Source: a virus
Lineage: Duplodnaviria > Heunggongvirae > Uroviricota > Caudoviricetes
Virus record (IMG/VR): IMGVR_UViG_2711768014_000006
Strand: one strand, 5' to 3'
DNA length: 44,064 bases
The notes under the pieces are model-generated. The model ran no database searches and had not been told where the DNA came from. It saw only the letters and a program-made list of their open reading frames with translations. Shown here piece after piece: positions 7,487 to 43,056 of the stretch (positions are counted from its first letter, which is position 1; the number at the start of each line of letters is the position of its first letter). The translations under genes were made by a program, and so were the position numbers.

Positions 7487-8001
7487 TGTTCTTTAAAACA
7501 TCAAACCCTTCCGCGCTGGCTGCGTGGCAAAAATACCAGCAGGACTGCCAGAAAGTTAAGGATGAGGCAAAACGCCTTGAGGCCGTGCTGAATGTTGCGT
7601 GCCGGTCGGTATTTGTATCCGGTATCAGTGGATTTTACTTTAAGGGACTGCGTTTTACGGAGGACAAATATCCTTTTCATCGCGACTTATGGCGAAAACC
7701 GACTGCGTCGAATGGCTGGAGCTGCACACCGCGCACATCACGTATCCCTAAAACCCTGCGTGTTGCCTCTGATGAACTGAACAGTCTGTGGCGTGAATAT
7801 TCGCCCGTCACGTATGCCAGAACCGATGCGCTGTTGTTCTGGTTGGGTATTGATTTCTCGGCAATCCTGTTTGGCCCTGTGAAGTGGTTCTGCGTTGACG
7901 ATGTGATTTACCTTCAGTGCGGCGTAAAACCCGCAAAACAGAAAATGACCGAAATACTGTCTGATGAGTTTTATGCTGCTGAAAAGCGAGTCAGGGGGTG
8001 A
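7486..8001 (+). CDS. Hypothetical protein
   Basis: 171-aa ORF, translationally coupled. Confidence 0.5.
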   Translation: MFFKTSNPSALAAWQKYQQDCQKVKDEAKRLEAVLNVACRSVFVSGISGFYFKGLRFTEDKYPFHRDLWRKPTASNGWSCTPRTSRIPKTLRVASDELNSLWREYSPVTYARTDALLFWLGIDFSAILFGPVKWFCVDDVIYLQCGVKPAKQKMTEILSDEFYAAEKRVRG

Positions 8002-9600: not shown

Positions 9601-10113
9601 ATGAATCGCGCTTCCCTGATTACCTTAATACATGTCGCAAAACGCGATCTACAGCTTGACCATGATACCTATACATCCGCGCTGCTGGCAGCCACCGGCA
9701 AATCCAGTTGCCGTGATATGTCACCCGGTGAGTTATCCCGCGTGCTGGATGTTTTCAAAAAACGCGGTTTTAAAGTGCGTCAGAAGCCGGTTAACCGGGC
9801 CTTAAAACCGGGTACGGTGACCGCCAAAATTCGCGCCATCTGGAAAGTGATGCACCGGCAGGGATTTATCTCTGATGGCGGGGAAACGGCCCTTAACCGC
9901 TGGGTGAAATCGCAGACGGCCGCGCAGAACGACGGCGAAGGTGTGGCTAACTGGCAGTGGCTGGAGCAACAACCCGCGCTGGCCTCTGATGTGCTGGAGC
10001 GTCTCAAACGCTGGCACCGCCGCAAAATGCTGGCAGCCCTGGATATGTCGGAACGTGCAGTGATGAGTTATGAGCGTGTTTGCAGGCTGTATGAAAAATC
10101 ATTCCCCCGTTAA
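9601..10113 (+). CDS. GemA-like regulatory protein (Mu gp16 family)
   Basis: 170-aa ORF at the end of the early operon, position and sequence consistent with Mu GemA. Confidence 0.65.
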   Translation: MNRASLITLIHVAKRDLQLDHDTYTSALLAATGKSSCRDMSPGELSRVLDVFKKRGFKVRQKPVNRALKPGTVTAKIRAIWKVMHRQGFISDGGETALNRWVKSQTAAQNDGEGVANWQWLEQQPALASDVLERLKRWHRRKMLAALDMSERAVMSYERVCRLYEKSFPR

Positions 10114-10183: not shown

Positions 10184-10606
10184 ATGGCTGAAACACAGAT
10201 GAGCATGTTTGGTGACAGCGAACAGCTGCACGCGCTGATTGACCGTCTGGATGATATTCCTGATGATGAGCTGAAAAAGAACTGGCCCGGCACGCTGCGG
10301 GACCTGGTTGATGTGATCAGTGCTGAACTGCACCGTCAGGGGATTGAACCTGCTCAGGCGGGAATGCTTGCCCGTAAGGTTGCAGCCGCACAGGCCGGGT
10401 ACATGGGCGGGCGTGGTTATTATCTCCCGGTCGGTGAATCCCTTTTCACCGAACTGCGCAATAATGAAATTTTTTCCCGCTGGAGCCAGGGCGAAAAAAT
10501 TGAAACCCTGCGCCGCCACTACCAGATGTCAGAGACGCAGATTTACTCCGTTATCCGCAACCAGCGTCGCCTGCATCAGGAACGCACGCAGCCACGGCTT
10601 TTCTGA
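10184..10606 (+). CDS. Mor/C-family transcriptional activator
   Basis: 140-aa product with Mor/C-like sequence; only one family member is present. Confidence 0.8.
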   Translation: MAETQMSMFGDSEQLHALIDRLDDIPDDELKKNWPGTLRDLVDVISAELHRQGIEPAQAGMLARKVAAAQAGYMGGRGYYLPVGESLFTELRNNEIFSRWSQGEKIETLRRHYQMSETQIYSVIRNQRRLHQERTQPRLF

Positions 10607-10677
10607 TATTCCGCAAATCCTGCCCCCTTTTCCTCACGGTTACGCTGACTCAGAGAACACCATGAGACAGCGTAACA

Positions 10678-18068: not shown

Positions 18069-18150
18069 GGTCAGTGGCGGGGGTCGAACCCGCATACATG
18101 ATCCACCCGGAGGCAGGCACCGACTTTACCAGTTAAGCGTACACTGACCG
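18069..18150 (-). other. tRNA-like element (acceptor helix, canonical D-arm and T-arm, no anticodon stem)
   Basis: Minus strand: 9-bp helix CGGTCAGTG/CACTGACCG, D-arm GCTT-AACTGGTA-AAGT, T-arm GCGGG-TTCGACC-CCCGC; the 29 nt in between cannot form a 5-bp anticodon stem. Confidence 0.3.
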
Positions 18151-18662: not shown

Positions 18663-18839
18663 TGGTTTAAGGTATGCAAACGTATTACCTTACCCCCTTC
18701 AGGCGCGTGTCGTGATTTTCTAACCTGTATTTAACGGGCTTTAAAATCTGCGTGAAGCGCCTTTCTCATTCCCCCCCTGTCAGCACTTTCTGAAGTCCCG
18801 CAAAACCAGCCCCAAAAATACCCGGCTTATGCTGCCGGT

Positions 18840-30190: not shown

Positions 30191-30620
30191 TATTGCAATT
30201 GTATGGGATCAGGGGTGCGGTTCGCTGCAACTGAACGGTGCCGACTTGCTGACGGATGACAGTCTGCTGACGGCCGTTCTGATTTCGCTGTTTACTGACC
30301 GCCGGGCGCTGGCATCGGATGAAATCCCTGACGGTACGCGCGACCGCCGGGGATGGTGGGGAGACAGTTTTCGCCCGCGCCCCATTGGCTCCCGTCTGTG
30401 GCTTCTCAGCCGGGAAAAAACGCTGGCCTCGGTGATAAGCCGTGCCCGTGCTTACGCGGATGAGGCGCTGGGCTGGCTCAGTCAGGATGGCGTGGCGTCA
30501 TCCGTGGTCTGTCATGCAGAACGTGTGGGACACGCGCGGCTGGCGCTTTCGGTGCGCATAACCCTGCCTGATGGTTCAGTGAGGCCCATGATTTTTTATG
30601 CTGATCTTAAGGGGGAGTAA
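30183..30620 (+). CDS. Baseplate protein (Mu gp46 / GPW-like)
   Basis: ATG at 30183 overlapping the previous stop; MADIAIVWDQ... Confidence 0.7.
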   Translation: MADIAIVWDQGCGSLQLNGADLLTDDSLLTAVLISLFTDRRALASDEIPDGTRDRRGWWGDSFRPRPIGSRLWLLSREKTLASVISRARAYADEALGWLSQDGVASSVVCHAERVGHARLALSVRITLPDGSVRPMIFYADLKGE

Positions 30621-31702
30621 TGCCTTATCAGCCTTTACCGCTGGCACAGTTAATCACGCAGACACAGCAGGATATCAGCCAGCGCCTGCCCGGCTCGCAG
30701 CCGGGTGTGAATGAAACCACCCTGAATGCCATTGCTTACGCTCAGGCAGGGTTATCTGCTCAGGAGCATGAGCATCTGGCCTGGATTGCGCGTCAGATCA
30801 TCCCGACCGAAGCCGATGAAGCCGAACTGCTGAAACACTGTGCATTCTGGGGCGTCATGCGTAAGCCTGCCTCTCGGGGGGACGGGCCGGTTCAGCTGAT
30901 GCTGACCACGGATGCGGGGATCAAGGAAGGTGTGCTTCTCCAGCGAAGTGATGGCGTGGTTTACCGTATCACCACCTCCCTGACCGGTAAGGCCGGTACG
31001 CTGAATGTCAGTGTGGAAGCCGAAAGTGCCGGTCGTGCGGGGAATGCCCCGGCAGGGACAAAACTGACATTTATCACACCGCAGGCGGGGATCAACCAGA
31101 CGGCCACGGTGACCGGAACGGGGATCACCGGTGGTGCGGATGTGGAAACCGTGCCGGAGCTGCTTTCCCGTCTGGTTTTCCGGGTGCAGAATCCACCGTC
31201 CGGCGGCACGCAGTATGATTTTGAACGCTGGGCGCGTGAAGTGCCGGGCGTGACGCGGGCATGGTGCCGCCCGGAATGGCCGCAGGCGGGCAGCGTGGGG
31301 GTAACGTTTGTTCAGGATAATAACCCGGATATTTTCCCCGGTGACGGTGATGTTCAGCGGGTGGCGGATTATATCCGCAGTCATGATGATCCGGCGACCG
31401 GCCAGCCTGTCGGACAGCCTCTGGGGCCGACGGTGACCGTGTTTAAACTGACCAATAAGCCGGTGCCCTTCAGCATCAGGATCATCCCGAAAACACCGGA
31501 GAATCAGGCGGCCGTAAAACAGGCGCTGACCGACCTGTTGTATAACGAATCCCGGCCCGGCGGTCTGGTTCTGCCGTCGTCTTTCTGGCGGGCGGTGGCA
31601 GGGGTGAAAAATCTGGAGGATTTTGAAGTGCGCAGTCCGCTGACGTCAGTTCAGGCGGGAGACAGTGAGCTGCTGACGGTAGGAGAAATCACATGGCTGT
31701 AA
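30620..31702 (+). CDS. Baseplate J-like protein (Mu gp47-like)
   Basis: 360-aa ORF. Confidence 0.8.
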   Translation: MPYQPLPLAQLITQTQQDISQRLPGSQPGVNETTLNAIAYAQAGLSAQEHEHLAWIARQIIPTEADEAELLKHCAFWGVMRKPASRGDGPVQLMLTTDAGIKEGVLLQRSDGVVYRITTSLTGKAGTLNVSVEAESAGRAGNAPAGTKLTFITPQAGINQTATVTGTGITGGADVETVPELLSRLVFRVQNPPSGGTQYDFERWAREVPGVTRAWCRPEWPQAGSVGVTFVQDNNPDIFPGDGDVQRVADYIRSHDDPATGQPVGQPLGPTVTVFKLTNKPVPFSIRIIPKTPENQAAVKQALTDLLYNESRPGGLVLPSSFWRAVAGVKNLEDFEVRSPLTSVQAGDSELLTVGEITWL

Positions 31703-32253
31703 CCCTGACCCCGCATCAGCGCGCCCTGTTGCAGTTACTGCCTGACGGGCTGGCATGGGACAAGCGTCCGTCATCCGTACTGGCATCATTATGTCTGGGC
31801 CTCAGTCATTCGACAGCGCGTGTATCCTGGACGGGTAAACAGCTGCTTGCCGAGCGTTTCCCTGACACGTCGCGCCTGCTGCTGGAAGACTGGGAGCGTT
31901 ATCTCGGGCTTCCCGAGTGTGATATGGCCGGAGCCACCCTCACGGAGCGACAGCGTTATGCCGGAAATAAATACCGGATGAAGCCCTCGCTGAACCGTGA
32001 ATTTTATATCCGGTTTGCGGCGGAGTTTGGTTATCAGATTGACATTCAGCCCTCACCGGATTCGCAGTGGGTCAGTATTGTCACGATTAACAGTGAAACC
32101 GGCTACCGGAATATGAATGTGCTGGATGATATTCTCACGCCGCTGCGTATTTATGAAGGCGGTGCGCTGGAATGTATTCTGAACCGTTATAAGCCTGCAT
32201 GGCAGACGTTTATTTACGTTTATGCAAACAGCCATGAAGAGGAGACTATTTAA
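31693..32253 (+). CDS. Tail protein (Mu gp48-like)
   Basis: 186-aa ORF before the tail-fibre gene. Confidence 0.7.
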
Positions 32254-33134
32254 TGTTTCATGTTGATAATAATTCCGGCGTGGCGAATATGCCTGCGCTG
32301 GCACCGGCGCAGAGTAATACCACCACCTGGTTTACCGAAGGTGACGGACAAAAAGGTATCAGCTGGATTGGTCAGGACTGGCTGAATATTCTCCAGGCCG
32401 AACTGCTGAATATTCTGGCTGAAGCCAGTATTCAGCCGGATAAGGCGCAGTTAAACCAGCTTACGCTGTCCATTAAAGCCATTATCGCTGCGAATGCCTT
32501 TTCCCGGAAAAATAACCTGAAAGAAATTGCTGATGCCGGTGCGGAGGCCCAGCGTCTGGCCCGTGGTTATCTTGGTCTGGGGACGCTTGCCACAAAAAAC
32601 AGTCTTGGTCCCGCTGACGTTAATGCCCTGGCGAAGGATCAGAATCTCGCCGACCTGGAGAATAAGGGAACCGCCCGTAATAATCTGGATGTTTACAGCA
32701 AAAGCGAAGGTGATAACCGTTACCTGCGCAGGGAGCAGAACGGCGCAGACATTCCGGATAAAGGGGCTTTTATCGATAACGTCGGTTTACGGGAAACGGT
32801 AAACAGGGCGGCGAATGCCCTGCCATCGGACGGCACCGCCGTTGCCGCGAACAGGCTGGCAAATGCCCACACAATTAATGGTGTTCCCTTTGACGGGACG
32901 CAGGATATCACTATCTCATCAGGAACAGTAACCGCCATAAGACTGGGGTCGGTGACCGCACATATGCCCGGAACATGGGAAAGCTGGGATCTGAATCTGG
33001 GGGGCGGCAATGTTCTTACCGGAATTAAAGTACAGGATGTCGGTAAGAATACGGCAGATAACGTCGGCGGCGTGTATTACCGGCCGTTGCAGTATCTGTT
33101 AAATGGAGCATGGGTGACGGCTGCAAGTATATAA
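32253..33134 (+). CDS. Tail fibre protein S (constant part plus the currently expressed variable part)
   Basis: 293-aa ORF; its 3' portion from about 32783 lies inside the invertible segment. Confidence 0.75.
32783..32851 (+). repeat. Left inverted repeat of the invertible tail-fibre segment (contains the recombination site)
   Basis: 69 bp, identical except one mismatch to the reverse complement of 34031..34099. Confidence 0.65.
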
Positions 33135-33143
33135 TGATATTCA

Positions 33144-33167
33144 GAAGGCCTTCCGGCCTTCTTTATT
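33144..33167. terminator. Bidirectional terminator hairpin between convergent S and tail-fibre-assembly genes
   Basis: GAAGGCC-TTCC-GGCCTTC followed by TTTATT. Confidence 0.5.
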
Positions 33168-33687
33168 ACTGTGGCTGCTCAGGCCATTTAATGGCGTTAA
33201 ATTCAGCTTCTGTTTTAATGGCGGGTAGTTCCATTTTCTTCACCTGACTGATGTATGCCATCCATTGGGTAAGTGCTGCTCTGTCTTCATCGCTGATGGT
33301 GCCCAGTTGTAGCTCCGTTCTCCAGTCATTAATTTTTTCATATGCCTGATTAAGATATGACTGGCGCATTGCTTCCAGTTTTCTTGCGTAGTTAACCGGA
33401 ATACGGGAGATTATGCCATTATCAAACTTCCAGTTTCCTGAAATATCCGTGCCTTCAGGGAGTTCATCGACCTCAACCACAGAAAACCCCGCAGGATACA
33501 GCGCCGAGGCGTCCTGTGATATTGAGCAGATAACGCCGCTGTCAGGTGTTATGCAAAGTTTATATTTTTTGGTGAATAATGGCAGGGATTCGTAGAAATC
33601 CTTACCATCTTCACTCTGGAAATACTGAACATTATTACCATATGGCATATTTTCAGGATAATAACGGGTTATATTTTTTAGTTCCAT
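33166..33687 (-). CDS. Tail fibre assembly protein (U'-like) inside the invertible segment
   Basis: 173-aa minus-strand ORF with AGGAGG RBS. Confidence 0.75.
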   Translation of the reverse strand: MELKNITRYYPENMPYGNNVQYFQSEDGKDFYESLPLFTKKYKLCITPDSGVICSISQDASALYPAGFSVVEVDELPEGTDISGNWKFDNGIISRIPVNYARKLEAMRQSYLNQAYEKINDWRTELQLGTISDEDRAALTQWMAYISQVKKMELPAIKTEAEFNAIKWPEQPQ

Positions 33688-33740
33688 AAAATCCTCCTGG
33701 AAATAAATCTGTTTTAAAATATATTATTTACTGACTATTT

Positions 33741-34099
33741 ATAACTGAGATACCGTAATCCATGTACCTCCGACTAATTTTTGCAGGGGTCTGAATGCTA
33801 TAAAATCGTTTGAAGCATCAACTTTACTGTCAATCTGCAGGCCTGCCATAACATTACCGTACGCAGAGTAATATGCCCCACCGTACATTACCTGCCTGTT
33901 CTCTGCTCCCAGCCTGATATCCTGGATATATCGGGAATCCGCATCCTGCTGTGTTATACCAGAAGTGATGTTTATGTCCTGCGTCCCGTCAAAGGGAACC
34001 CCATTAATATTTCTTGGGGTGGCGAGTCTATTCGCGGCAACGGCGGTGCCGTCCGATGGCAGAGCATTCGCCGCCCTGTTTACCGTTTCCCGTAAACCG
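33741..34099 (-). CDS. Alternative tail-fibre variable segment (S'v), no start codon of its own
   Basis: Minus-strand reading frame continuous with the S frame through the inverted repeat, ending ...GTWITVSQL at a TAA (plus 33741-33743); would be fused to the S constant part after inversion. Confidence 0.4.
34031..34099 (-). repeat. Right inverted repeat of the invertible tail-fibre segment
   Basis: Reverse complement matches 32783..32851. Confidence 0.65.
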
Positions 34100-34177
34100 A
34101 GGTTTTCAGGAAAGCCAGGATTAACTCTGTTTTATTCCTCATGCGACAATTCCGGCTTTTTATAATAAGGAAATCGT

Positions 34178-34750
34178 ATGCTGATTGGGTATATCAGGGT
34201 GTCAACAAATGACCAGAATACGGCGCTACAAAGAAATGCGCTGGAATGTGCAGGATGTGAGCTGTTTTTCGAAGACAGAATAAGCGGTAAGACAAGGGAG
34301 CGTCCCGGACTTAAACGCGCATTAAAGCGACTCCGGCCAGGGGATACCCTGCTGGTCTGGAAACTGGATCGCCTTGGACGCAGTATGCAGCACCTTGTCC
34401 TTTTAACAGAAGAACTCCGGCAACGCGGCGTTAACTTCCGCAGCATTACGGACAATATTGATACATCCACTCCCATGGGACGTTTCTTTTTCCATATAAT
34501 GGGCGCGCTGGCGGAAATGGAGCGGGAACTCATTATTGAACGTACACGCGCGGGTCTTGCTGCTGCCCGTGCTCAGGGGCGTCATGGCGGCAGACCTCAG
34601 AAACTGACAGAGAAAGAGCGGGAGCAAATCGCCCGTTTGCTGGCTAATGGCGAGTCCCGTAAACAAATCGCACTGATATTTGATATTGGCCTTTCCACCC
34701 TTTATCGTTATTTTCCTGCCTCACCAGCTCCGTCACCAAAAGTACCGTGA
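34178..34750 (+). CDS. gin: Serine DNA invertase (Gin/Hin/Pin family)
   Basis: MLIGYIRVSTNDQNTALQ... with catalytic Ser and C-terminal HTH; sits just outside the right inverted repeat. Confidence 0.9.
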   Translation: MLIGYIRVSTNDQNTALQRNALECAGCELFFEDRISGKTRERPGLKRALKRLRPGDTLLVWKLDRLGRSMQHLVLLTEELRQRGVNFRSITDNIDTSTPMGRFFFHIMGALAEMERELIIERTRAGLAAARAQGRHGGRPQKLTEKEREQIARLLANGESRKQIALIFDIGLSTLYRYFPASPAPSPKVP

Positions 34751-34835
34751 CGCTTTTTTGAATTTCCGCAAAACACATATTTTTCAGCGGTCGCTATTCT
34801 GACTCTGTTTAATTCAGAAACAGGCAGAAAAGACG

Positions 34836-36890
34836 ATGTCAGACTCCAAGTGGAAAATGCTCTCCGCCATGCCCGGAGAGTTTTCAGTCAAGGTTGCCGG
34901 TGGCACGGTGGCATTTATTGAAAGCCCTTTCCGCCCTTCGGGTAATAAAGGGGGGATCACCTTCGCAGACTGCGTGATCCGCTTCAGCACGAAAGAGCCA
35001 TTATGGGTAATGCCGGTATCCGGTAATCCCAGTGCAGAAATCACCAGTTCAGGCGTGACTGGCATCATTCCAATCACATCTGACGTGGCCGGAACGCTCA
35101 CGCCCTCCGACTGGAATGCACCGGATAACGCCGGGCCTTCCGGTAGCACGAATGGCAGCAGTTCAGAGCCGGAATATTACTTTGTTGTCATTCTCGCGGG
35201 TCAGTCAAATGGCATGGCCTACGGCGAGGGGCTGCCGTTACCGGATTCGTTTGACCGCCCGGACCCACGCATTAAGCAACTGGCACGCCGCAGTACGGTA
35301 ACGCCCAACGGTACGTCGTGTACATACAACGACATCATTCCGGCAGACCACTGCCTGCATGATGTTCAGGATATGAGCGGGATAAACCACCCGAAAGCTG
35401 ATCTGGCAAAAGGCCAGTACGGGACTGTCGGTCAGGGGTTGCATATTGCCAAAAAACTGCTTCCCTATATCCCACAGAATGCCGGGATACTTCTGGTGCC
35501 CTGTTGTCGTGGCGGGTCAGCATTCACCACTGGAGCCGACGGCTCATTCAGTGAGGCCAGCGGTGCTTCCGCTGATTCTTCACGCTGGGGGGCCGGTAAA
35601 CCTCTGTATCAGGACCTGGTAAGCCGCACCAAAGTCGCGCTGGCGAAAAACCCGAAAAACAAACTTCTGGCTGTGGTCTGGATGCAGGGAGAGGCAGACC
35701 TTGCCTCAGGAAGCCAGCAGCATAATAGTTTATTCACGGCCATGGTTCAGCAGTTCAGAACTGACCTGGCTCCGCTTGCTGCGCAGTGCGTGAGTGGAAA
35801 TGCCACCACGGTGCCGTGGATTTGCGGTGATACCACGTATTACTGGAAAAACGCTGGCACCGATAAATATGAGGCAGTATACGGTGGCTACAAAGGCAAG
35901 GAAGCACAGAAAATTTTCTTTGTACCGTTCCTGACGGATGAGAATGGACAGAGCACGCCAACGAATGCTCCGGCGGAAGACCCGGATATTGTGGCTGTCG
36001 GGTATTACGGTGCAGCATCCCGAACCCAGGGCAGTTTTGTTTCGACACAGCGTGACAGCCATTTCAGCTCATGGGCACGCAGGGGCGTCATTTCAGACCG
36101 TCTGGCCTCAGCTATTATGCTCCATGCAGGGCGCACGGCTGAACTGATGCGTGGGCAGACCGTGACACCACCGGATGAGAAGCCGTCACCTGATACACCA
36201 TCAAAACCGTCCACGCCACCCGCAGACACCACGACGATGAGTACGCTATTTGCTTACCGGGCATCTGAGTCTGAAGGACGGTTGACACCACAGGGTTGGG
36301 CTGCCGGAGGTGGCAAGGCTCAAATCGTGGATGATGCCGGAGCCAGCGGGGGTAAGGCAATGAAACTGACCAAGGAAACAGGAAGAGCCCCCTGGTACCT
36401 TGAGCATGATGCTGGTAATGGTGCGGACCTGCTGGGTAAAGGTGGTCTTGTCAGTTGTCGTTTTAAACTCGATGGCGCGCTTACGGCTAATCAGTACGCA
36501 CTGGCGCTGTACTGGCCGGTTTCTGCCCTGCCGCAAGGGGTTACTCTGGAAGGAAATGCCGGTCATAACCTGCTGGCATCGTTCTACGTACAGAGCGATG
36601 CCACAGACCTTAACGTGATGTATCACAAAGGAAACACGGCGCAGAACACGAAGCTGGGGTCATTCGGCGCATTTAATAACGAATGGCATACGCTGGGCTT
36701 CCGTTTTGCCGGTAACAACAGTATTGAGGTGACGCCGGTCATTGATGGTAAGGACGGGACACCATTCATGCTGTCGCAGTCTCCGGTCGGCACGTTTACG
36801 GCAGACAAGTTGCGCGTGACCGATATCACTAAAAATGCGACTTACCCGGTACTGATTGACAGTATCGTGGTGGAAGTGAATAACGCGTAA
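34836..36890 (+). CDS. SGNH/sialate-O-acetylesterase-domain protein with N- and C-terminal extra domains (NanS-p-like prophage esterase candidate)
   Basis: Motif YFVVILAGQSNGMAYGEGLPLPD (GQSN esterase motif) about 130 aa in; Pro/Thr-rich linker then a C-terminal beta-rich domain; 684 aa. Confidence 0.6.
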   Translation: MSDSKWKMLSAMPGEFSVKVAGGTVAFIESPFRPSGNKGGITFADCVIRFSTKEPLWVMPVSGNPSAEITSSGVTGIIPITSDVAGTLTPSDWNAPDNAGPSGSTNGSSSEPEYYFVVILAGQSNGMAYGEGLPLPDSFDRPDPRIKQLARRSTVTPNGTSCTYNDIIPADHCLHDVQDMSGINHPKADLAKGQYGTVGQGLHIAKKLLPYIPQNAGILLVPCCRGGSAFTTGADGSFSEASGASADSSRWGAGKPLYQDLVSRTKVALAKNPKNKLLAVVWMQGEADLASGSQQHNSLFTAMVQQFRTDLAPLAAQCVSGNATTVPWICGDTTYYWKNAGTDKYEAVYGGYKGKEAQKIFFVPFLTDENGQSTPTNAPAEDPDIVAVGYYGAASRTQGSFVSTQRDSHFSSWARRGVISDRLASAIMLHAGRTAELMRGQTVTPPDEKPSPDTPSKPSTPPADTTTMSTLFAYRASESEGRLTPQGWAAGGGKAQIVDDAGASGGKAMKLTKETGRAPWYLEHDAGNGADLLGKGGLVSCRFKLDGALTANQYALALYWPVSALPQGVTLEGNAGHNLLASFYVQSDATDLNVMYHKGNTAQNTKLGSFGAFNNEWHTLGFRFAGNNSIEVTPVIDGKDGTPFMLSQSPVGTFTADKLRVTDITKNATYPVLIDSIVVEVNNA

Positions 36891-38177: not shown

Positions 38178-38224
38178 GATTGAGTGATAAAGATATCAAC
38201 AACAAAGCAGGAGGTTATGCGGCC

Positions 38225-38425
38225 ATGTATCGAAACATACGGTGCCGACATTGTAACAAGCTACTGGCACGAGCCAGCTTCAGTTATCTGGAAGTTAAAT
38301 GTCCGCGCTGTAAAACCCTCAATCAAATCACATCTCAGAGCGCCACAGAGCACCCCACATACACAAGGAAATCCTGTCGTGGGGAACAGAAAGCAAGTTA
38401 CATCCCGTATCATCAGCACGCCTGA
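38225..38425 (+). CDS. com: Com-like zinc-finger translational activator
   Basis: [35 protein letters not shown]... closely resembles Mu Com (IRCKNCNKLL...IRCPRCK); AGGAGG 10 nt upstream of the ATG. Confidence 0.7.
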
Positions 38426-39116
38426 ACTTATTCACTATAACGACAATATCGTCGGTTATGGCTCCCGTGAGTTACGGGTTGAGACAATAAGTTGCTGGCT
38501 GGCCCGGCTGGTCGTCGTCAATAAACATTACAGCCATCGTTTCGTAAATAATTCCTACCTTCATCTGGGCATATTTTCAGAACGGGAGCTGGTTGGCGTA
38601 ATGCAATGGGGTTATGCCCTTAATCCAAACAATGGTGCACGCGTCGTAACTGGCACGCAGAACCGCGAATATATGGAGCTTAACCGGTTATGGCTGCATG
38701 ACTGTATGCCGAGAAACTCCGAATCAAGGGCAATCAGTTACGCGCTCAAACTAATCAGACAACTTTATCCGCAGGTGCAGTGGGTTCAGTCGTTTGCAGA
38801 TGAGCGTTGTGGCTGTCTTGGTGTCGTGTACCAGGCAAGCAATTTTGATTATGTAGGCAGTCATGAAACAACATTCTATGAACTTGATGGCGAGTGGTAT
38901 CACGAGATTTGCAAGAATGCAATCAAACGAGGAGGACAGCGAGGTGAACATCTGCGGGCTAATATCGACAGAGCCAGTGTTCATAAATTCCGTCAGTTTC
39001 GTTACATCCGGTTTCTGGACAAGAGAGCCAGAAAACGCCTTAACACAAAGCTATTCAAAGTCCAGCCTTACCCAAAACCACAAACAGTTAAAACTGGTTT
39101 GAAAGAGAGTGAATGA
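38379..39116 (+). CDS. mom: Mom-like DNA modification protein; start uncertain (the open frame extends upstream to 38184)
   Basis: Frame overlaps the 3' end of com as in Mu; a GTG at 38379 gives about 245 aa, close to the ~241 aa I recall for Mu Mom. Confidence 0.55.
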
Positions 39117-39274: not shown

Positions 39275-39830
39275 CCATGCTGTAAATCTCTTTATCCTGG
39301 TTGTCACAGAATAAGCCCGGTAAAATACGGGCTTATGAACGACATCTCTTCTGACGACATCTTCCTGCTGAAACAGCGCCTTGCCGAACGTCAGTTGAAA
39401 ACGAAACCGCTGCTGAAATCCCTGGAAAGCTGGCTGCGTGAAAAGATGAAAACCCTGTCGCGACACTCAGAACTGGCGAAAGCGTTCGCATATGCCCTGA
39501 ACCAGTGGCCGGCGCTGACGTACTATGCAGATGATGGCTGGGCTGAGGCGGACAATAACATCGCTGAAAATGCGTTGCGGATGGTCAGTCTGGGCCGCAA
39601 AAACTACCTGTTCTTCGGTTCGGATCATGGAGGAGAGCGGGGAGCGCTGCTGTACAGCCTGATCGGGACGTGCAAACTGAACGGAGTGGAGCCAGAAAGC
39701 TACCTCCGCTATGTCCTTGACGTCATAGCCGACTGGCCGATAAACCGGGTCGGCGAACTGCTCCCCTGGCGCGTAGCACTGCCGACTGAATAACACATTC
39801 CCGTCAATACGGTTCTTGCTGCACGCTTAC
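39275..39830 (+). mobile_element. IS66-family element, right portion, ending at the IS terminus
   Basis: Reverse complement of 39813-39830 is GTAAGCGTGCAGCAAGAA, the GTAA-type terminal repeat of IS66-family elements as I recall it. Confidence 0.55.
39335..39793 (+). pseudogene. IS66-family transposase TnpC, C-terminal fragment (about 150 of ~520 aa)
   Basis: ...ADDGWAEADNNIAENALRMVSLGRKNYLFFGSDHGGERGALLYSLIGTCKLNGVEPESYLRYVLDVIADWPINRVGELLPW matches the conserved C-terminus of IS66 transposases; the N-terminal two thirds are absent. Confidence 0.75.
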
Positions 39831-39846
39831 GGTAAACACCCCGGAA

Positions 39847-40875
39847 GTGGTGATGCACACTGTTGCTGATGTGATGACAGGAAACGATGGTGAATACTGT
39901 TTCCATGCGCGGACTGGAAAATATGGTGTGTATCTGAAACCGGGCTGGCACAACGAGTACAACGTTGGCGACATTGCTGTATACGACGACTCAAAGCCCG
40001 GCACGCTGAATGACTTTCTGATTGCTCCTGATGAGGGCGACCTGAAACCGGATGTCGTCAAACGCTTTGAGGAAATGGTGGCGCAGGCGCAGCAGAGCGC
40101 CGGGGCAGCAGGCGAAAAGGCACAACAGAAGTCCCGGGATAATCTGGGGCTGAAAAGTGCGGCCACGATGGAAGCACAGAGCGACATTTACGACCGGACA
40201 AAAGGCCGTCTGGCGATACCCGGCGCATTCGGCTTTGGGTGTGCTTTTCTGCCTGAAGATGTTATCCGTTTTGACACTAAGAGTGATTTCCTGGCCTGGG
40301 TAAGGAATGCGCTGCCAGGTGAATATTCCGTTGCTGGCCCCTACGACATCATCATACCCGACACACGGTTTGAAGGGGTGCTCAGCATCCGGTGGACTGA
40401 TGCACGCCCTGAGACAACAGAACCGAGGTACAGAGCCAAATCCCTTACTTTTTACGGCATTAACGGCCCCATTTATCACACCCGCTACTGCTACTGGCCC
40501 ATATCCAGACTGACTGGCTGGGTGAAAATAAATATAACCACAGAAGATATTATTTACAGAATCGTGGCGAGCTCTGTCTGCAACAGATGGGGAGACCCTG
40601 ACATTGGCGGGCTGATTATTGCTGCGTACCAGGGAGAAGCTGACGGTGATAAAGTCATCAGACTTGTCAGGGGGCAGTCATACAGAGGCTCACGACTGGG
40701 ACCGGTGGGGATTTCAGTGCCCAGTACTCCCACCGGAACGTATATAGCATCCCCACAATTTTTCATTACGGGATGTTCAGAGCATTCATTACCGGGGTCA
40801 TATTGCGCCCTGTCCGGGGTGCCGGATGCTCATGTCTCTGGCGCAATGCCCGGGCTTTTTATTCGCACATCGTGA
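39847..40875 (+). CDS. Phage tail-fibre-like protein, probably a C-terminal fragment truncated by the IS66 insertion
   Basis: 342-aa ORF beginning 17 bp after the IS66 terminus, followed by a chaperone-like gene. Confidence 0.4.
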   Translation: MVMHTVADVMTGNDGEYCFHARTGKYGVYLKPGWHNEYNVGDIAVYDDSKPGTLNDFLIAPDEGDLKPDVVKRFEEMVAQAQQSAGAAGEKAQQKSRDNLGLKSAATMEAQSDIYDRTKGRLAIPGAFGFGCAFLPEDVIRFDTKSDFLAWVRNALPGEYSVAGPYDIIIPDTRFEGVLSIRWTDARPETTEPRYRAKSLTFYGINGPIYHTRYCYWPISRLTGWVKINITTEDIIYRIVASSVCNRWGDPDIGGLIIAAYQGEADGDKVIRLVRGQSYRGSRLGPVGISVPSTPTGTYIASPQFFITGCSEHSLPGSYCALSGVPDAHVSGAMPGLFIRTS

Positions 40876-40885
40876 GGAATGCACC

Positions 40886-41798
40886 GTGGAAATTAAAAAA
40901 ATCATTAATCCCCGTTATACCGAAAGTGGCGCAGTAGACTGTGACGTTTTTTTTGACGACAGGGACCAGGCAGTCCCCTACACAGCCACCGCTGATGATG
41001 TCGCACCGACGGGTCAGCGAATCTGGCAGGAACTGCAAAGTGGCAAATGGGGTGAGATAGCCCCATTCACTGTGACACCAGAAATGCTGGAAGCGGCCAG
41101 AGAGGCCAGACGTCAGGAAATTGAAGCATGGCGCACAGAACAGGAGGCGAAGCCGTTCACGTTTGAATGGAATGGTCGTATCTGGAATGCTGGCCCCGAC
41201 TCACTGGGCCGCCTGTCCCCGGTAGTCATGCTGGCAAAATCTGTCACAGCACAAACNNNNNNNNNNNNNNNNNNNNNNNNNNNNNNNNNNNNNNNNNNNN
41301 NNNNNNNNNNNNNNNNNNNNNNNNNNNNNNNNNNNNNNNNNNNNNNNNNNNNNNNNNNNNNNNNNNNNNNNNNNNNNNNNNNNNNNNNNNNNNNNNNNNN
41401 NNNNNNNNNNNNNNNNNNNNNNNNNNNNNNNNNNNNNNNNNNNNNNNNNNNNNNNNNNNNNNNNNNNNNNNNNNNNNNNNNNNNNNNNNNNNNNNNNNNN
41501 NNNNNNNNNNNNNNNNNNNNNNNNNNNNNNNNNNNNNNNNNNNNNNNNNNNNNNNNNNNNNNNNNNNNNNNNNNNNNNNNNNNNNNNNNNNNNNNNNNNN
41601 NNNNNNNNNNNNNNNNNNNNNGATGCCGATAATCAGCAGGTGAAACTGTCGATGCCGGAACTGGAAGAACTGGCGGCAGCAATGGTGCAGGCGCAGGTCG
41701 ATCGCAACGATGAGATTTATCGCCGTCAGCGTGAAATGAAAGAGGAGCTGAGTGGTCTGGAGGATTTGGGAACAATTAGAGCGTTTGATGTTACGTAA
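40886..41798 (+). CDS. Tail-fibre assembly/chaperone-like protein, interrupted by the assembly gap
   Basis: GTG start after GAGGAA; coding resumes after the N run and ends at TAA 41796-41798; frame continuity across the gap cannot be checked. Confidence 0.35.
41257..41621. other. Assembly gap (365 N)
   Basis: Run of N characters. Confidence 0.99.
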
Positions 41799-41844
41799 TT
41801 GGTAAGCTGCATCGTGTTAAATTGTTACCCTTATTTACAACTAG

Positions 41845-41878
41845 AAAAGCCTCTGACTTCATAATCAGAGGCTTTTTT
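41845..41878 (+). terminator. Rho-independent terminator
   Basis: AAAAGCCTCTGA-loop-TCAGAGGCTTTTTT. Confidence 0.6.
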
Positions 41879-41996
41879 GAAATGCACGTGCATTTTGCGT
41901 GTATATTTTTGTCTTTTTCTGGTCCGCTTACTGTCTGGTCAGTGTCCGTAAGTGACTGTTTTTATAGTCTCTGTCCGGTTGCAGTCCTGTCAAAAG

Positions 41997-42359
41997 TGGT
42001 GGAGCTGGCGGGAGTTGAACCCGCGTCCGAAATTCCTACATCCTCGGTACTACATGCTTAGTCAGTCTTTACATTCGCTTGCCAGCTGCGGACGGACACG
42101 CCACTAACAAACTAGCCTGATTAAGTTTTAACGCTTCAACCCCAGGCAGGGCTTCCACGCGATCTCTTTTGGGTTTGACCTCTCTTGATCCCCGTCCTAA
42201 GAGCGGAGGCTAGGGAGAGAGGGCTCTAAGCAGGTTATTAAGCTGCTAAAGCGTAGTTTTCGTCGTTTGCGACTATTTTTTGCGGCTTTTTACGAGGCCA
42301 ACCGCCCCTCGGCATGCACCTTGGGTTTCGCAAATCCCGTCGAATCCAGAATCAGCCCC
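41997..42359 (-). ncRNA. ssrA: tmRNA (SsrA), 363 nt
   Basis: Reverse complement reads GGGGCTGATTCTGGATTCGACGGG...tag-peptide region...GGACGCGGGTTCAACTCCCGCCAGCTCCACCA, the enterobacterial ssrA sequence. Confidence 0.95.
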
Positions 42360-42573
42360 AATGTGTAAAGGTAAGTATACCAGATTTATGAGCGCCATGA
42401 CCAGCCTCAATGGCGTTATCGTTAAAGATTTAGCACCCATGTAGCCTGATTTTTATTCGATTAAGCAATGGGATGGCAACATTTGTGTCGGATGTGATAG
42501 CCAATAAGATGTTCATTCGCGCCGCCGGAGAGGGAGGCGCGGTGAGGAACTGGTCAATAATTGGAGTGCAGGT

Positions 42574-43056
42574 TTAACGGTGGGCGTTTTTCATGATACG
42601 TGCTTTATCCACCTGCCATTCGCGTTCTTTGATATCTGAACGTTTATCGTGCTGTTTTTTACCTTTGGCGACGCCGATTTTCACTTTGCACCAGGCATTT
42701 TTCCAGTACAGGGAGAGCGCCACTACGGTATAGCCTTCTCGATTGACGCGACCGTACAATGAGTCCAGTTCGCGCTGGTTGAGAAGTAACTTGCGGGTAC
42801 GGGTAGGATCGCACACCACATGCGTGGAGGCCACGGCCATTGGCGTGATGTTAGCGCCAAACAGAAATGCCTCTCCGTCACGCAGAAGGACGTAGCTGTC
42901 GCTGATATTGGCTTTTCCTGCGCGCAGGGATTTAACTTCCCAGCCTTGCAGGGCAAGTCCCGCTTCGAACTCTTCTTCGATAAAGTATTCGTGACGGGCG
43001 CGCTTGTTAAGCGCGATGGTCGCTGAACCAGGTTTATGTGCTTTTTTCTTCGTCAT
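42574..43056 (-). CDS. smpB: SsrA-binding protein SmpB
   Basis: 160-aa product [44 protein letters not shown]...; upstream of ssrA on the same strand. Confidence 0.95.

What the first reader, a model, noticed from the sequence alone, without database searches (positions are those of the whole stretch)
32253..34750. Gin-type invertible tail-fibre segment with asymmetric content
69-bp inverted repeats (32783..32851 and 34031..34099) flank about 1.3 kb, with the invertase immediately outside. In the present orientation S is complete and ends at a hairpin with no plus-strand assembly chaperone. The other strand carries an alternative variable segment (ending at 33741) followed by a tail-fibre assembly gene (33166..33687). 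Only one orientation therefore couples fibre and chaperone, unlike the symmetric Sv-U / U'-S'v layout of Mu.
Basis: partly seen in the sequence, partly recalled or inferred. Interest (0 to 1): 0.5.

Follow-up and report, generated by a model that had tools for sequence, protein, structure and literature searches.

The report
Invertible tail-fibre switch, one chaperone
This E. coli Mu-like prophage flips a 1.3-kb DNA segment to swap the tip of its tail fibre, but unlike phage Mu it carries one fibre-assembly chaperone gene for the two tips, so the orientation seen most often in sequenced genomes leaves that gene pointing against the fibre operon.

Summary
Two 26-bp gix-like sites (32770-32795, 34087-34112) lie at the outer ends of about 150-bp inverted repeats and bound a 1,316-bp segment. 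A Gin homologue (72% identical to Mu Gin) sits just outside it. Two near-identical E. coli genomes differ over 42.5 kb only by an exact reverse complement of this segment, so it does invert.

S (293 aa) is a short Mu-S homologue. Inside the segment are tip A (now fused to S), a hairpin, one tfa gene on the other strand, and tip B upstream of tfa.

The asymmetry is not local decay. All 24 complete Sp18-like loci surveyed have one tfa, as does a Citrobacter braakii prophage, whereas Mu, a closer Mu relative and P2-like phages have two. Tip A is under strong purifying selection, and the tfa-uncoupled orientation predominates in assemblies. "Locked" derivatives that lost tip B and gin keep an intact convergent tfa and sit at four different chromosomal sites.

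Favoured reading (about 0.5): one generalist chaperone serves both tips and is transcribed independently of the late operon. No convincing promoter was found in this window. The main rival is a chaperone-independent tip A.

Sp18's invertible region was noted in 2009, so this is a new variant of a known kind.

The parts
31693..32253 (+). Baseplate wedge gene (Mu gp48 homologue) immediately upstream of S
   Evidence: Pfam Phage_Mu_Gp48, 7.5e-22. The gp47 homologue (Baseplate_J) is at 30620-31702.
32253..33134 (+). Tail-fibre gene S as now assembled (293 aa): constant part Sc, shared repeat-encoded stretch, then tip A
   Evidence: ORF. Residues 1-190 match Mu S in PDB 5yvq_A / 8ju3_A at E about 1e-46. 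The tip matches the phiTE short tail-fibre tip (9cuy_c, 4.7e-11) and more weakly the Mu S' tip.
32770..32795 (+). Left gix-like recombination site, central dinucleotide TC at 32782-32783
   Evidence: TTATCGATAACGTCGGTTTACGGGAA against Mu gixL TTATCCAAAACCTCGGTTTACAGGAA, 22/26 identical.
32775..32923 (+). Left inverted-repeat arm. It codes for S residues about 175-224, which both fibre versions share.
   Evidence: 86-nt arm at 93% plus 50-nt arm at 84%. Base-by-base comparison.
32924..33134 (+). Tip A: variable receptor-binding tip with no co-oriented chaperone gene
   Evidence: The motif ADN(V/I)GGVYYRP is conserved in all alleles. dN/dS is about 0.05-0.11.
33143..33162 (.). Hairpin (AGAAGGCC TTCC GGCCTTCT) between the two convergent stop codons; terminator-like for transcripts arriving through tip A
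   Evidence: Terminator scan. A different hairpin sequence occupies the same place in other alleles.
33166..33687 (-). The only tail-fibre assembly (Tfa, U'-like) gene, 173 aa
   Evidence: Pfam Caudo_TAP 4.8e-19. Matches Mu U in PDB 5yvq_B at 4e-16. Only Tfa homologue in the prophage.
33688..33738 (-). 51-nt A+T-rich spacer with a strong AGGAGG ribosome-binding site upstream of tfa
   Evidence: Sequence. Spacers are 51-121 nt in single-tfa systems against 0-20 nt in two-tfa systems.
33739..34086 (-). Tip B (Sv'): silent alternative fibre end, an open frame without a start codon; it becomes fused to Sc after inversion
   Evidence: Translation. Matches the Mu S tip at 5e-10. Expressed as a 296-aa S in FORC_043, NCCP 13983 and CI5.
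33959..34107 (-). Right inverted-repeat arm
34087..34112 (+). Right gix-like site, central dinucleotide GA at 34099-34100
   Evidence: TTCCCGTAAACCGAGGTTTTCAGGAA against Mu gixR TTCCTGTAAACCGAGGTTTTGGATAA, 21/26 identical.
34178..34750 (+). Gin-family serine DNA invertase, 190 aa
   Evidence: Resolvase 1.6e-51 and HTH_7 4.9e-15. 72% identical to Mu Gin, with Ser9 in RVSTNDQ conserved.
33805..33833 (-). Weak candidate promoter for tfa inside tip B (TTGACA-17-AACGAT); not statistically supported
   Evidence: Best sigma-70 weight-matrix score in the 300 nt upstream of tfa, but p = 0.16 against shuffles. Not conserved in allele CI5.

Best explanation
**Shown.** The window holds an Sp18-like (Mu-like) transposable prophage of E. 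coli. A Gin-family serine invertase recombines two inverted 26-bp gix sites and flips a 1,316-bp segment. The flip replaces the last 70-odd residues of the short tail fibre S (tip A or tip B; about 115 codons lie inside the segment, the first 45-50 of them shared repeat sequence), which presumably changes receptor specificity as in Mu. The segment holds one tfa gene, arranged as tip A -> hairpin <- tfa <- tip B. tfa is therefore part of the late operon only when tip B is joined to S.

**Inferred.** This is the normal design of the lineage, not decay. The single Tfa is a generalist chaperone whose fibre-binding N-domain barely varies while the tips vary. Tip A fibres are functional and are probably the form that infects E. 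coli. tfa is most likely also needed for tip A and is transcribed on its own when it lies convergent to S. In the 'locked' derivatives that transcription could come from a sigma-70-like promoter created at the deletion junction. In this window the promoter has not been identified.
For: **Inversion**
- FORC_029 and NCCP 13983 are identical over 42,498 bp except window 32801-34081, which is an exact reverse complement.
- Both orientations occur among complete E. coli genomes.
- The gix sites and invertase match Mu's.

**Lineage-wide single tfa**
- 24 of 24 complete Sp18-like loci have one tfa between two tips.
- A C. braakii Mu-like prophage also has one.
- Mu, locus L052 and P2-like phages have two.

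**Tip A is functional**
- dN/dS is 0.05-0.11 between invertible alleles.
- Exact S-tipA proteins were seen on 997 and at least 1000 contigs. The matching S-tipB proteins were seen on 41 and 7.
- Complete genomes show 20 against 6 for this allele, and roughly 125-175 against 25 for the Sp18 allele.

**tfa is needed with tip A**
- Homologous tips elsewhere (phiTE-like CR3, POP15, Av-05; C. braakii L008) are each followed by a co-oriented tfa.
- Locked derivatives lack tip B and most of gin but keep an intact convergent tfa with dN/dS 0.1-0.2.
- In M1 the late-gene half through mom is annotated without pseudogenes, and in the other three strains the tail half through mom is too. They sit in four different host genes in four strains (flgL, xdhA, citF, bcsA). 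They therefore spread after the deletion.
- Their junction forms ATGATA-17-TATAAT upstream of tfa.

**Generalist chaperone**
- Tfa residues about 20-95 are nearly invariant across alleles carrying tips B1, B1', B3, A1 and A2. The Sp18-type Tfa (allele T3) is the exception, at about 61% identity to this window's Tfa.

**Uncoupling**
- tfa has its own strong ribosome-binding site.
- The spacer upstream of tfa is 51-121 nt, against 0-20 nt in two-tfa systems.
- In C. braakii the only two promoter-like hits in 2 kb fall in that spacer.
- Best promoter scores upstream of tfa are higher in single-tfa than in two-tfa systems.
Against: - No sigma-70-like site (9/12 or better) lies on the tfa strand anywhere in 32200-34900.
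- No copy of the phage's putative late-activator box (TTYTG-N8-CAAAA) lies upstream of tfa.
- The best weight-matrix candidate in this window (TTGACA-17-AACGAT) is not significant (p = 0.16) and is not conserved between alleles.
- The spacers of different alleles are not homologous to each other.
- The promoter-score contrast rests on few, related loci and may reflect A+T content.
- Diversity of tfa among locked variants could come partly from recombination with invertible alleles rather than from selection in the locked state.
- The orientation counts are not phylogenetically independent; O157:H7 is clonal.
- Exact-protein counts depend on the allele. S-tipB3 was seen on 205 + 25 contigs.
- Mu-like fibres without any chaperone exist: Sf14, as reported in PMC11821841.
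Confidence: 0.5

Rival explanations
1. Tip A folds and trimerises without any Tfa. The single tfa serves tip B only and is silent in the window orientation. Inversion then toggles between a bare fibre and a chaperone-capped fibre.
For: - No promoter was detected for tfa in the window orientation.
- The slot without tfa always holds the same tip family (ADNxGGVYYRP), whereas the tfa-linked slot holds at least three different tip types. This fits tip A having a special property.
- Mu-like fibres without chaperone homologues are reported for Sf14.
- Tip A is clearly functional and its orientation predominates.
Against: - Every homologous tip checked in another context is followed by a tfa. This includes the same tip family in C. 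braakii, where it is the tfa-linked tip.
- Tip-A-locked phages have kept tfa intact under purifying selection, with a junction-made promoter, while spreading to four insertion sites.
Confidence: 0.25
2. The chaperone reaches tip A in trans. The source would be either the minority of phage genome copies that flip during lytic replication or Tfa proteins of other resident prophages.
For: - The Tfa N-domain is generic across tip types.
- Several genomes carry two copies of the prophage in opposite orientations (DLI.5a, TOE17, AST46), and CI5 carries an invertible copy plus a locked one.
- From my own knowledge, lambda Tfa can substitute for T4 gp38.
Against: - Most genomes have one copy (median of 1-2 matching places per genome).
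- Locked phages cannot flip yet keep their own tfa.
- Other prophages' late genes are not expressed during a Mu-type lytic cycle (inference).
- Flipped copies would also make competing S-tipB subunits (inference).
Confidence: 0.1
3. The asymmetry is decay. A second tfa (U) was lost, so the window orientation is an OFF state that gives fibre-defective particles.
For: - The closest well-studied systems all have two tfa genes.
- Some copies show decay: tip A is frameshifted in FORC_043, tip B in L059, and the invertase in STEC2017-197.
Against: - All 24 complete loci, spanning several diverged alleles, share the layout.
- Tip A has dN/dS about 0.1.
- The supposedly defective orientation is the commoner one for the window-type and Sp18-type alleles.
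- Phages locked in it have spread to new hosts and sites.
Confidence: 0.05

Closest known systems
Phage Mu G segment with Gin (S-U / U'-S')
   Same: - The S constant part is homologous (E about 1e-46).
- Both tips are homologous to the Mu S/S' tip domain.
- Tfa is homologous to Mu U/U'.
- The invertase is 72% identical to Gin.
- The gix sites are 21-22/26 identical, at the same place in S (after ...FI(D/Q)N(V/L)GL).
- The invertase gene lies just right of the segment.
   Different: - The segment is 1.3 kb rather than 3 kb.
- S is 293-296 aa rather than 504 aa; the middle shaft is missing.
- There is one tfa rather than two.
- tfa is separated from its fibre gene by 51-121 nt rather than 2 nt.
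- The inverted repeats are about 150 bp rather than 34 bp.
- A DUF6645/SASA esterase gene is inserted between gin and com-mom.
Sp18, the Mu-like prophage of E. coli O157:H7 Sakai, and its relatives (C. rodentium Mu-like prophages CRP28/49/99)
   Same: - It is the same phage lineage and the same segment layout.
- Flanking genes are 80-99% identical.
- Asadulghani et al. [quoted passage not shown]
- A Tfa from C. rodentium is in the same 90%-identity cluster as this one.
   Different: - This window carries other tip and tfa alleles (tip A1, tip B1; Tfa 61% identical to Sp18's).
- I found no published description of the single-chaperone arrangement or of its consequences.
P1/P7 C segment with Cin, P2-like phages with invertases (pro483, P88, Shae_phiSM), e14 P segment with Pin
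   Same: They use serine invertases of the same family (about 72-79% identical for the myovirus ones). These flip the 3' end of a tail-fibre gene between alternative tips.
   Different: The ones examined here carry two back-to-back tfa genes, each tightly coupled to its own tip. For e14 this rests on my recollection of the K-12 annotation (stfP-tfaP / tfaE-stfE) and was not tested.
Citrobacter braakii ATCC 51113 Mu-like prophage (locus L008)
   Same: It has a single tfa convergent to the expressed S, a 69-nt spacer before tfa, and a Gin homologue outside the segment. It is an apparently independent second case of the one-chaperone layout.
   Different: - S is long (472 aa) and Tfa is long (229 aa, with a C-terminal extension).
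- The ADNIGGVYY-type tip is here the tfa-linked one.
- There are three gix-like sites, so probably more than one invertible unit.

Membership tests
Gin/Hin/Cin/Pin serine DNA invertase system | Resolvase-type catalytic domain with the active-site serine near residue 9-10, plus a C-terminal HTH | tested here: met
   PF00239 at 1.6e-51 and PF02796 at 4.9e-15. Ser9 in RVSTNDQ is invariant in the alignment with Mu Gin, to which the protein is 72% identical.
Gin/Hin/Cin/Pin serine DNA invertase system | Two 26-bp recombination sites in inverted orientation with the same central dinucleotide | tested here: met
   Sites at 32770-32795 and 34087-34112. The inner half-sites are identical (GGTTTACGGGAA). 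The core is TC/GA. They are 22/26 and 21/26 identical to Mu gixL/gixR.
Gin/Hin/Cin/Pin serine DNA invertase system | The segment actually inverts | tested here: met
   FORC_029 and NCCP 13983 show 0 differences in 42.5 kb apart from an exact reverse complement of 32801-34081. Both orientations occur in many genomes. Not tested in the strain the window comes from.
Gin/Hin/Cin/Pin serine DNA invertase system | Fis-dependent recombinational enhancer in the 5' part of the invertase gene | tested here: inconclusive
   The gin 5' region is about 80% identical to Mu's. One Fis-consensus-like 15-mer sits at +71 in the window, Mu and Sp18, and at +74 in C. braakii. The second one seen in Mu at +34 is not matched. 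The pattern is degenerate and I could not verify the published enhancer coordinates.
Mu G-segment-type tail-fibre switch | Constant 5' part of the fibre gene outside the segment, alternative 3' parts inside on opposite strands | tested here: met
   Sc is 32253-32782. Tip A is on the + strand and tip B on the - strand, both in frame with Sc across the gix site.
Mu G-segment-type tail-fibre switch | Each alternative tip followed by its own assembly gene (U and U') | tested here: not met
   There is one Tfa homologue only, co-oriented with tip B. The same holds in 24/24 related loci.
Caudo_TAP tail-fibre assembly proteins (Mu U, P2 G, lambda Tfa) | Sequence membership of PF02413 and homology to a Tfa of known structure | tested here: met
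   PF02413 at 4.8e-19, above the curated cut-off. Matches Mu U in 5yvq_B at 4.2e-16 over residues 18-153.
Caudo_TAP tail-fibre assembly proteins (Mu U, P2 G, lambda Tfa) | Required for folding of, and bound to, the cognate fibre tip | not testable with these tools
   This needs co-expression or knockout experiments, or multimer modelling. Only a single-chain predictor was available.
Mu-like transposable phage (Sp18 group) | Mu-type gene order: baseplate gp44-48, S, gin, com-mom at the right end, and random insertion sites | tested here: met
   Baseplate_J and Phage_Mu_Gp48. Mom domain at 38184-39116. The annotated relatives share the full Mu-like late-gene order from gp27 to mom (M1, FORC_029) or the tail half of it (CI5, JE86-ST02, S1-CAM-01-A), and the prophage interrupts a different host gene in each strain.

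The most novel reading that the evidence does not exclude
The lineage has reduced the Mu scheme to one orientation-independent, generalist chaperone sitting in the middle of the invertible segment. Alternatively, its main E. coli-directed tip needs no chaperone. Either way, inversion changes the fibre tip and also whether the chaperone is made with it from the late operon. In Mu the Tfa stays on the fibre tip and is reported to bind the host surface itself (North & Davidson 2021, cited in PMC11915804; I could not read it). So this could be a two-layer host-range switch, and a natural test case for what Tfa proteins are really required for.
Probability: 0.3. Interest if true: 0.6.

Novelty: new variant of a known kind. 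Interest (0 to 1): 0.4.

Why it matters
Every textbook invertible tail-fibre system pairs each alternative tip with its own assembly chaperone. This lineage does not.

It is common: related sequence occurs in 236 of 5,426 complete E. coli genomes, including O157:H7, and on thousands of contigs. It uses a single chaperone gene, and its commonest orientation leaves that gene antisense to the fibre operon.

Working out how tip A is assembled would answer three questions:
- Are Tfa proteins specific or generic?
- Can they be dispensed with for this widespread tip fold?
- How can a gene inside an invertible segment be expressed in both orientations?

This bears on engineering phage and tailocin host range with swapped tips. 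It also bears on reading prophage tail-fibre loci, which annotation pipelines now label as 'incomplete' or 'hypothetical'.

Tried and rejected
- **Sigma-70 consensus scan.** Run on both strands of 32200-34900. Nothing was found on the tfa strand.
- **Late-activator box.** I looked for a late-activator (Mu C-type) box. The Mu dyad TTAT-N6-ATAA gave no meaningful sites. A dyad derived from this phage, TTYTG-N8-CAAAA, marks three plausible late promoters at 10601, 18788 and 34756. The last has a -10 at the spacing expected from the Mu geometry given in PMC2582627. None lies upstream of tfa, and the palindromic 34756 site has no -10 on the leftward side.
- **Apparent box near tfa.** A 'CCGCAAAAC'-like box upstream of tfa was a chance resemblance.
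- **Promoter inside the long inverted repeat.** This would make inward transcription independent of orientation. By eye I found only TTGACG-16-TATCTC on the left arm and nothing usable on the right arm (sequences).
- **Weight-matrix promoter scoring.** Single-tfa systems scored higher than two-tfa systems. No individual site beat its own shuffles at p < 0.05.
- **Genome-collection scan with the constant part of S.** It returned only four loci. The viral collection gave 62.
- **Contigs ending at the repeat.** Many IMG/VR contigs end exactly there. I do not count this as evidence of mixed orientations, because a 150-bp inverted repeat breaks short-read assemblies anyway.
- **Co-variation of Tfa type with tip type.** It is uninformative, because tfa lies physically between both tips.
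- **Literature.** No paper in the searchable library describes the single-chaperone layout. North & Davidson 2021 could not be opened.
- **Structure prediction.** Not used. Only single chains can be modelled, and the question concerns a trimer-chaperone complex.
Full report
**What is there**

The region 32253-34750 is 100% identical to several complete E. coli chromosomes, and related sequence occurs in 236 of 5,426 complete E. coli genomes. The surrounding genes are those of a Mu-like transposable phage:
- Baseplate_J (gp47) at 30620-31702 and gp48 at 31693-32253.
- A Mom-family gene at 38184-39116.
- The full Mu-like late-gene order in annotated relatives.

The closest named relative is prophage Sp18 of O157:H7 Sakai.

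**The observation**

The repeat finder gives inverted arms at 32775-32860 / 34022-34107 (86 nt, 93%) and a second block at 32874-32923 / 33959-34008 (50 nt, 84%).

The outermost 26 bp of each arm are gix-type sites:
- Left, 32770-32795: TTATCGATAACG-TC-GGTTTACGGGAA.
- Right, 34087-34112: TTCCCGTAAACC-GA-GGTTTTCAGGAA.

The inner half-sites are identical and the central dinucleotide is the same. The sites are 22/26 and 21/26 identical to Mu gixL and gixR, and lie at the same place in the fibre gene. Crossover to crossover is 1,316 bp.

The ORF at 34178-34750 has Resolvase and HTH_7 domains. It is 72% identical to Mu Gin and keeps the catalytic serine.

**Content of the segment**

S (32253-33134, 293 aa) matches Mu S over residues 1-190 (PDB 5yvq_A and 8ju3_A, E about 1e-46). 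It lacks about 200 residues of Mu's shaft.

Its last 70 or so residues, which I call tip A, match two solved fibres:
- The tip of the phiTE short tail fibre (9cuy_c, 4.7e-11).
- The Mu S' tip, more weakly.

S ends 9 nt before a hairpin at 33143-33162.

On the minus strand lie tfa and tip B:
- tfa is at 33166-33687. It matches Caudo_TAP at 4.8e-19 and Mu U at 4e-16.
- Upstream of tfa, after a 51-nt spacer, is an open frame without a start codon. It runs from the right gix site to a stop at 33739-33741. This is tip B.
- Tip B matches the Mu S tip at 5e-10.

Both tips end in the same motif (RPxQ...G.W.T), so they are versions of one fold.

tblastn with ten different Tfa proteins finds no second tfa in the prophage.

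**It really inverts**

E. coli FORC_029 and NCCP 13983 carry the prophage in the same host gene. Over 42,498 bp they are identical, except that window positions 32801-34081 are an exact reverse complement with 0 mismatches.

In the flipped genomes, annotation shows a 296-aa S followed on the same strand by tfa.

**The asymmetry is the design of the lineage**

I fetched 62 related loci from viral contigs and added loci from E. coli genomes. I then mapped Sc, the tips, tfa, the invertase and the downstream gene on all of them.

All 24 loci that contain the complete segment have exactly one tfa between two tips. This holds even though the tips and tfa fall into several diverged alleles.
- The slot without a co-oriented tfa always holds one tip family, marked by the motif ADN(V/I)GGVYYRP, in subtypes A1 and A2.
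- The tfa-linked slot holds at least three different tip types.

A Mu-like prophage of Citrobacter braakii (L008) also has a single, convergent tfa.

Other systems have two tfa genes, each 0-20 nt from its own tip:
- Mu.
- A closer Mu relative (L052).
- The P2-like phages Shae_phiSM, pro483 and P88.

In the single-tfa systems the gap before tfa is longer:
- 51 nt (this allele), 79 nt (Sp18 type) or 121 nt (L005 type) in the Sp18-like group.
- 69 nt in C. braakii.

**Tip A is not a relic**

Between invertible alleles, tip A has dN/dS of about 0.05-0.11. For example, dN is 0.136 and dS is 1.22 for the window against L027.

The orientation that joins tip A to S is the commoner one in most counts:

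| Source | Tip A joined to S | Tip B joined to S |
|---|---|---|
| Surveyed loci | 17 | 7 |
| Complete genomes, this allele | 20 | 6 |
| Complete genomes, Sp18 allele | roughly 125-175 | 25 |
| Contigs, exact protein, this allele | 997 | 41 |
| Contigs, exact protein, Sp18 allele | at least 1000 | 7 |

One tip-B type is also common in the fused state, on 205 + 25 contigs. These counts are not phylogenetically independent.

Inversion leaves the recombination sites unchanged, so the two flip directions should be equally fast. A lasting bias therefore points to one of two things (inference):
- A founder effect, in which tip-A particles are the ones that lysogenise E. coli.
- Selection acting in lysogens.

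**Does tip A use the chaperone?**

Five lines of evidence say it probably does.

1. Homologous tips are followed by a co-oriented tfa in every other context checked. These are the Vequintavirinae phages POP15, CR3 and Av-05, and C. braakii, where the ADNIGGVYY-type tip is the tfa-linked one. In phage 19-1-2 an unannotated ORF occupies the same position and matches the window's tfa only weakly (E = 0.44).

2. The Tfa N-terminal domain is reported to be the part that binds the fibre in Mu (North et al. 2019, from my recollection of that paper). It is almost invariant across alleles whose tips differ. The Sp18-type Tfa is the exception. This fits a generalist chaperone.

3. There is a family of 'locked' derivatives:
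 - They comprise seven viral contigs and the E. coli strains CI5, M1, M3, M18, JE86-ST02 and S1-CAM-01-A.
 - In all of them, tip B and all but the last 55 bp or so of gin are deleted at one shared junction, while S-tipA and the convergent tfa remain.
 - Their tfa is intact, with dN/dS 0.1-0.2.
 - In M1 the prophage from gp27 to mom is annotated without pseudogenes, and in CI5, JE86-ST02 and S1-CAM-01-A the tail half through mom is too.
 - The prophages interrupt four different host genes in four strains: flgL, xdhA, citF and bcsA.
 - The locked phage therefore kept spreading after the deletion.

4. The deletion junction creates a sigma-70-like promoter on the tfa strand, ATGATA-17-TATAAT. It matches the consensus at 10 of 12 positions, and the -10 hexamer spans the junction. 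In one sub-lineage (L028) the -35 is weaker.

5. In C. braakii the only two promoter-like hits in 2 kb lie in the spacer before tfa.

**What argues against**

In this window I could not find how tfa would be transcribed.
- There is no sigma-70-like site on its strand.
- There is no copy of the phage's putative late-activator dyad. I derived that dyad from sites at 10601, 18788 and 34756, using the Mu geometry described in PMC2582627.
- The best weight-matrix candidate is TTGACA-17-AACGAT at 33833-33805, inside tip B. It has p = 0.16 against shuffles and is not conserved in other alleles.

Best promoter scores upstream of tfa are higher in single-tfa systems (8.7-12.7) than in two-tfa or lytic systems (5.2-10.0). 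The loci are few and related, and base composition may explain the difference.

Chaperone-free Mu-like fibres are reported for Sf14. So a chaperone-independent tip A remains a serious rival.

**Verdict**

The system is a member of the Gin/gix invertase family and works like the Mu G segment. It fails one defining feature of the Mu layout, the pairing of each tip with its own tfa.

The existence of an invertible host-specificity region in Sp18 was published in 2009. I found no description of the one-chaperone arrangement, of the predominance of the uncoupled orientation, or of the locked derivatives.

I rate it a new variant of a known kind, of moderate interest.

My probabilities for how tip A is assembled:

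| Explanation | Probability |
|---|---|
| One shared chaperone, expressed independently of orientation | about 0.5 |
| Chaperone-independent tip A | about 0.25 |
| Chaperone supplied in trans | about 0.1 |
| Defective or OFF orientation | about 0.05 |
| Something not considered | the remainder |

Noticed in passing
window 34836-36890 (promoter region 34751-34835): A 684-aa gene lies between gin and com-mom, in a region that also holds small DUF1378 and DUF826 genes. It has a sialate-O-acetylesterase-like SASA domain and a C-terminal DUF6645 domain (7e-68). It is present in all Sp18-like relatives. It is preceded by a perfect dyad, TTTTGAATTTCCGCAAAA (34756-34773), with a -10-like TATTCT at the spacing expected for a Mu C-type late promoter. 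It could be a virion-associated or surface-modifying carbohydrate esterase.
   Followed up: partly
window 10601-10618, 18788-18805, 34756-34773: Three copies of TTyTGA-N-yCCGCAAA(A/T) lie upstream of late-gene blocks. They are candidate binding sites for the phage's C-like late activator. A fourth, expected before the tail/baseplate operon, was not found with one mismatch or fewer.
   Followed up: partly
loci L024-L026, L028, L031, L033, L040; E. coli CI5, M1, M3, M18, JE86-ST02, S1-CAM-01-A: 'Locked' derivatives of the phage share one deletion that removes tip B and most of gin. They keep S-tipA and a convergent tfa, carry either the A1 or the A2 tip, and sit at four different chromosomal sites. 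The junction forms a TATAAT -10 hexamer.
   Followed up: yes
locus L008 7000-10400 (Citrobacter braakii ATCC 51113): This second single-tfa invertible fibre locus has three gix-like sites (near 7819-7852, 9780-9856 and 10190-10223). There is unannotated sequence between the last tip and the invertase, so there may be more than one invertible unit.
   Followed up: partly
window about 18069-18150, minus strand: RefSeq annotates a 'tRNA-OTHER' at the equivalent place in FORC_029 and M1, between the head-morphogenesis and virion-morphogenesis genes. The window sequence there has a T-arm-like GGGTTCGACCCCCGCC. ARAGORN and Rfam at gathering threshold report nothing.
   Followed up: partly
window 39335-43056: The right flank of the prophage holds:
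- an IS66 transposase fragment;
- a lambdoid 'prophage tail fibre N-terminal' fragment (39847-40875);
- a DUF4376 fragment resembling the C-terminal extension of long Tfa proteins (about 41039-41792);
- a run of N (about 41270-41600);
- tmRNA (41997-42359, minus strand) and smpB.

The Mu-like phage appears to lie next to, or inside, the remains of another prophage at ssrA.
   Followed up: partly
loci L002 (FORC_043), L020, L059, L005 (STEC2017-197): Scattered decay occurs in individual copies. The silent tip A is frameshifted in FORC_043 and L020. Tip B is frameshifted in L059. The invertase is frameshifted in STEC2017-197.
   Followed up: no
loci L022, L029, L037, L041-L047 (IMG/VR contigs): About ten contigs end inside the inverted repeat, at S residues 169-220. 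The repeat breaks short-read assemblies, so this locus is often fragmented. Annotation pipelines also call tip B an 'incomplete' tail protein and S 'hypothetical'.
   Followed up: no
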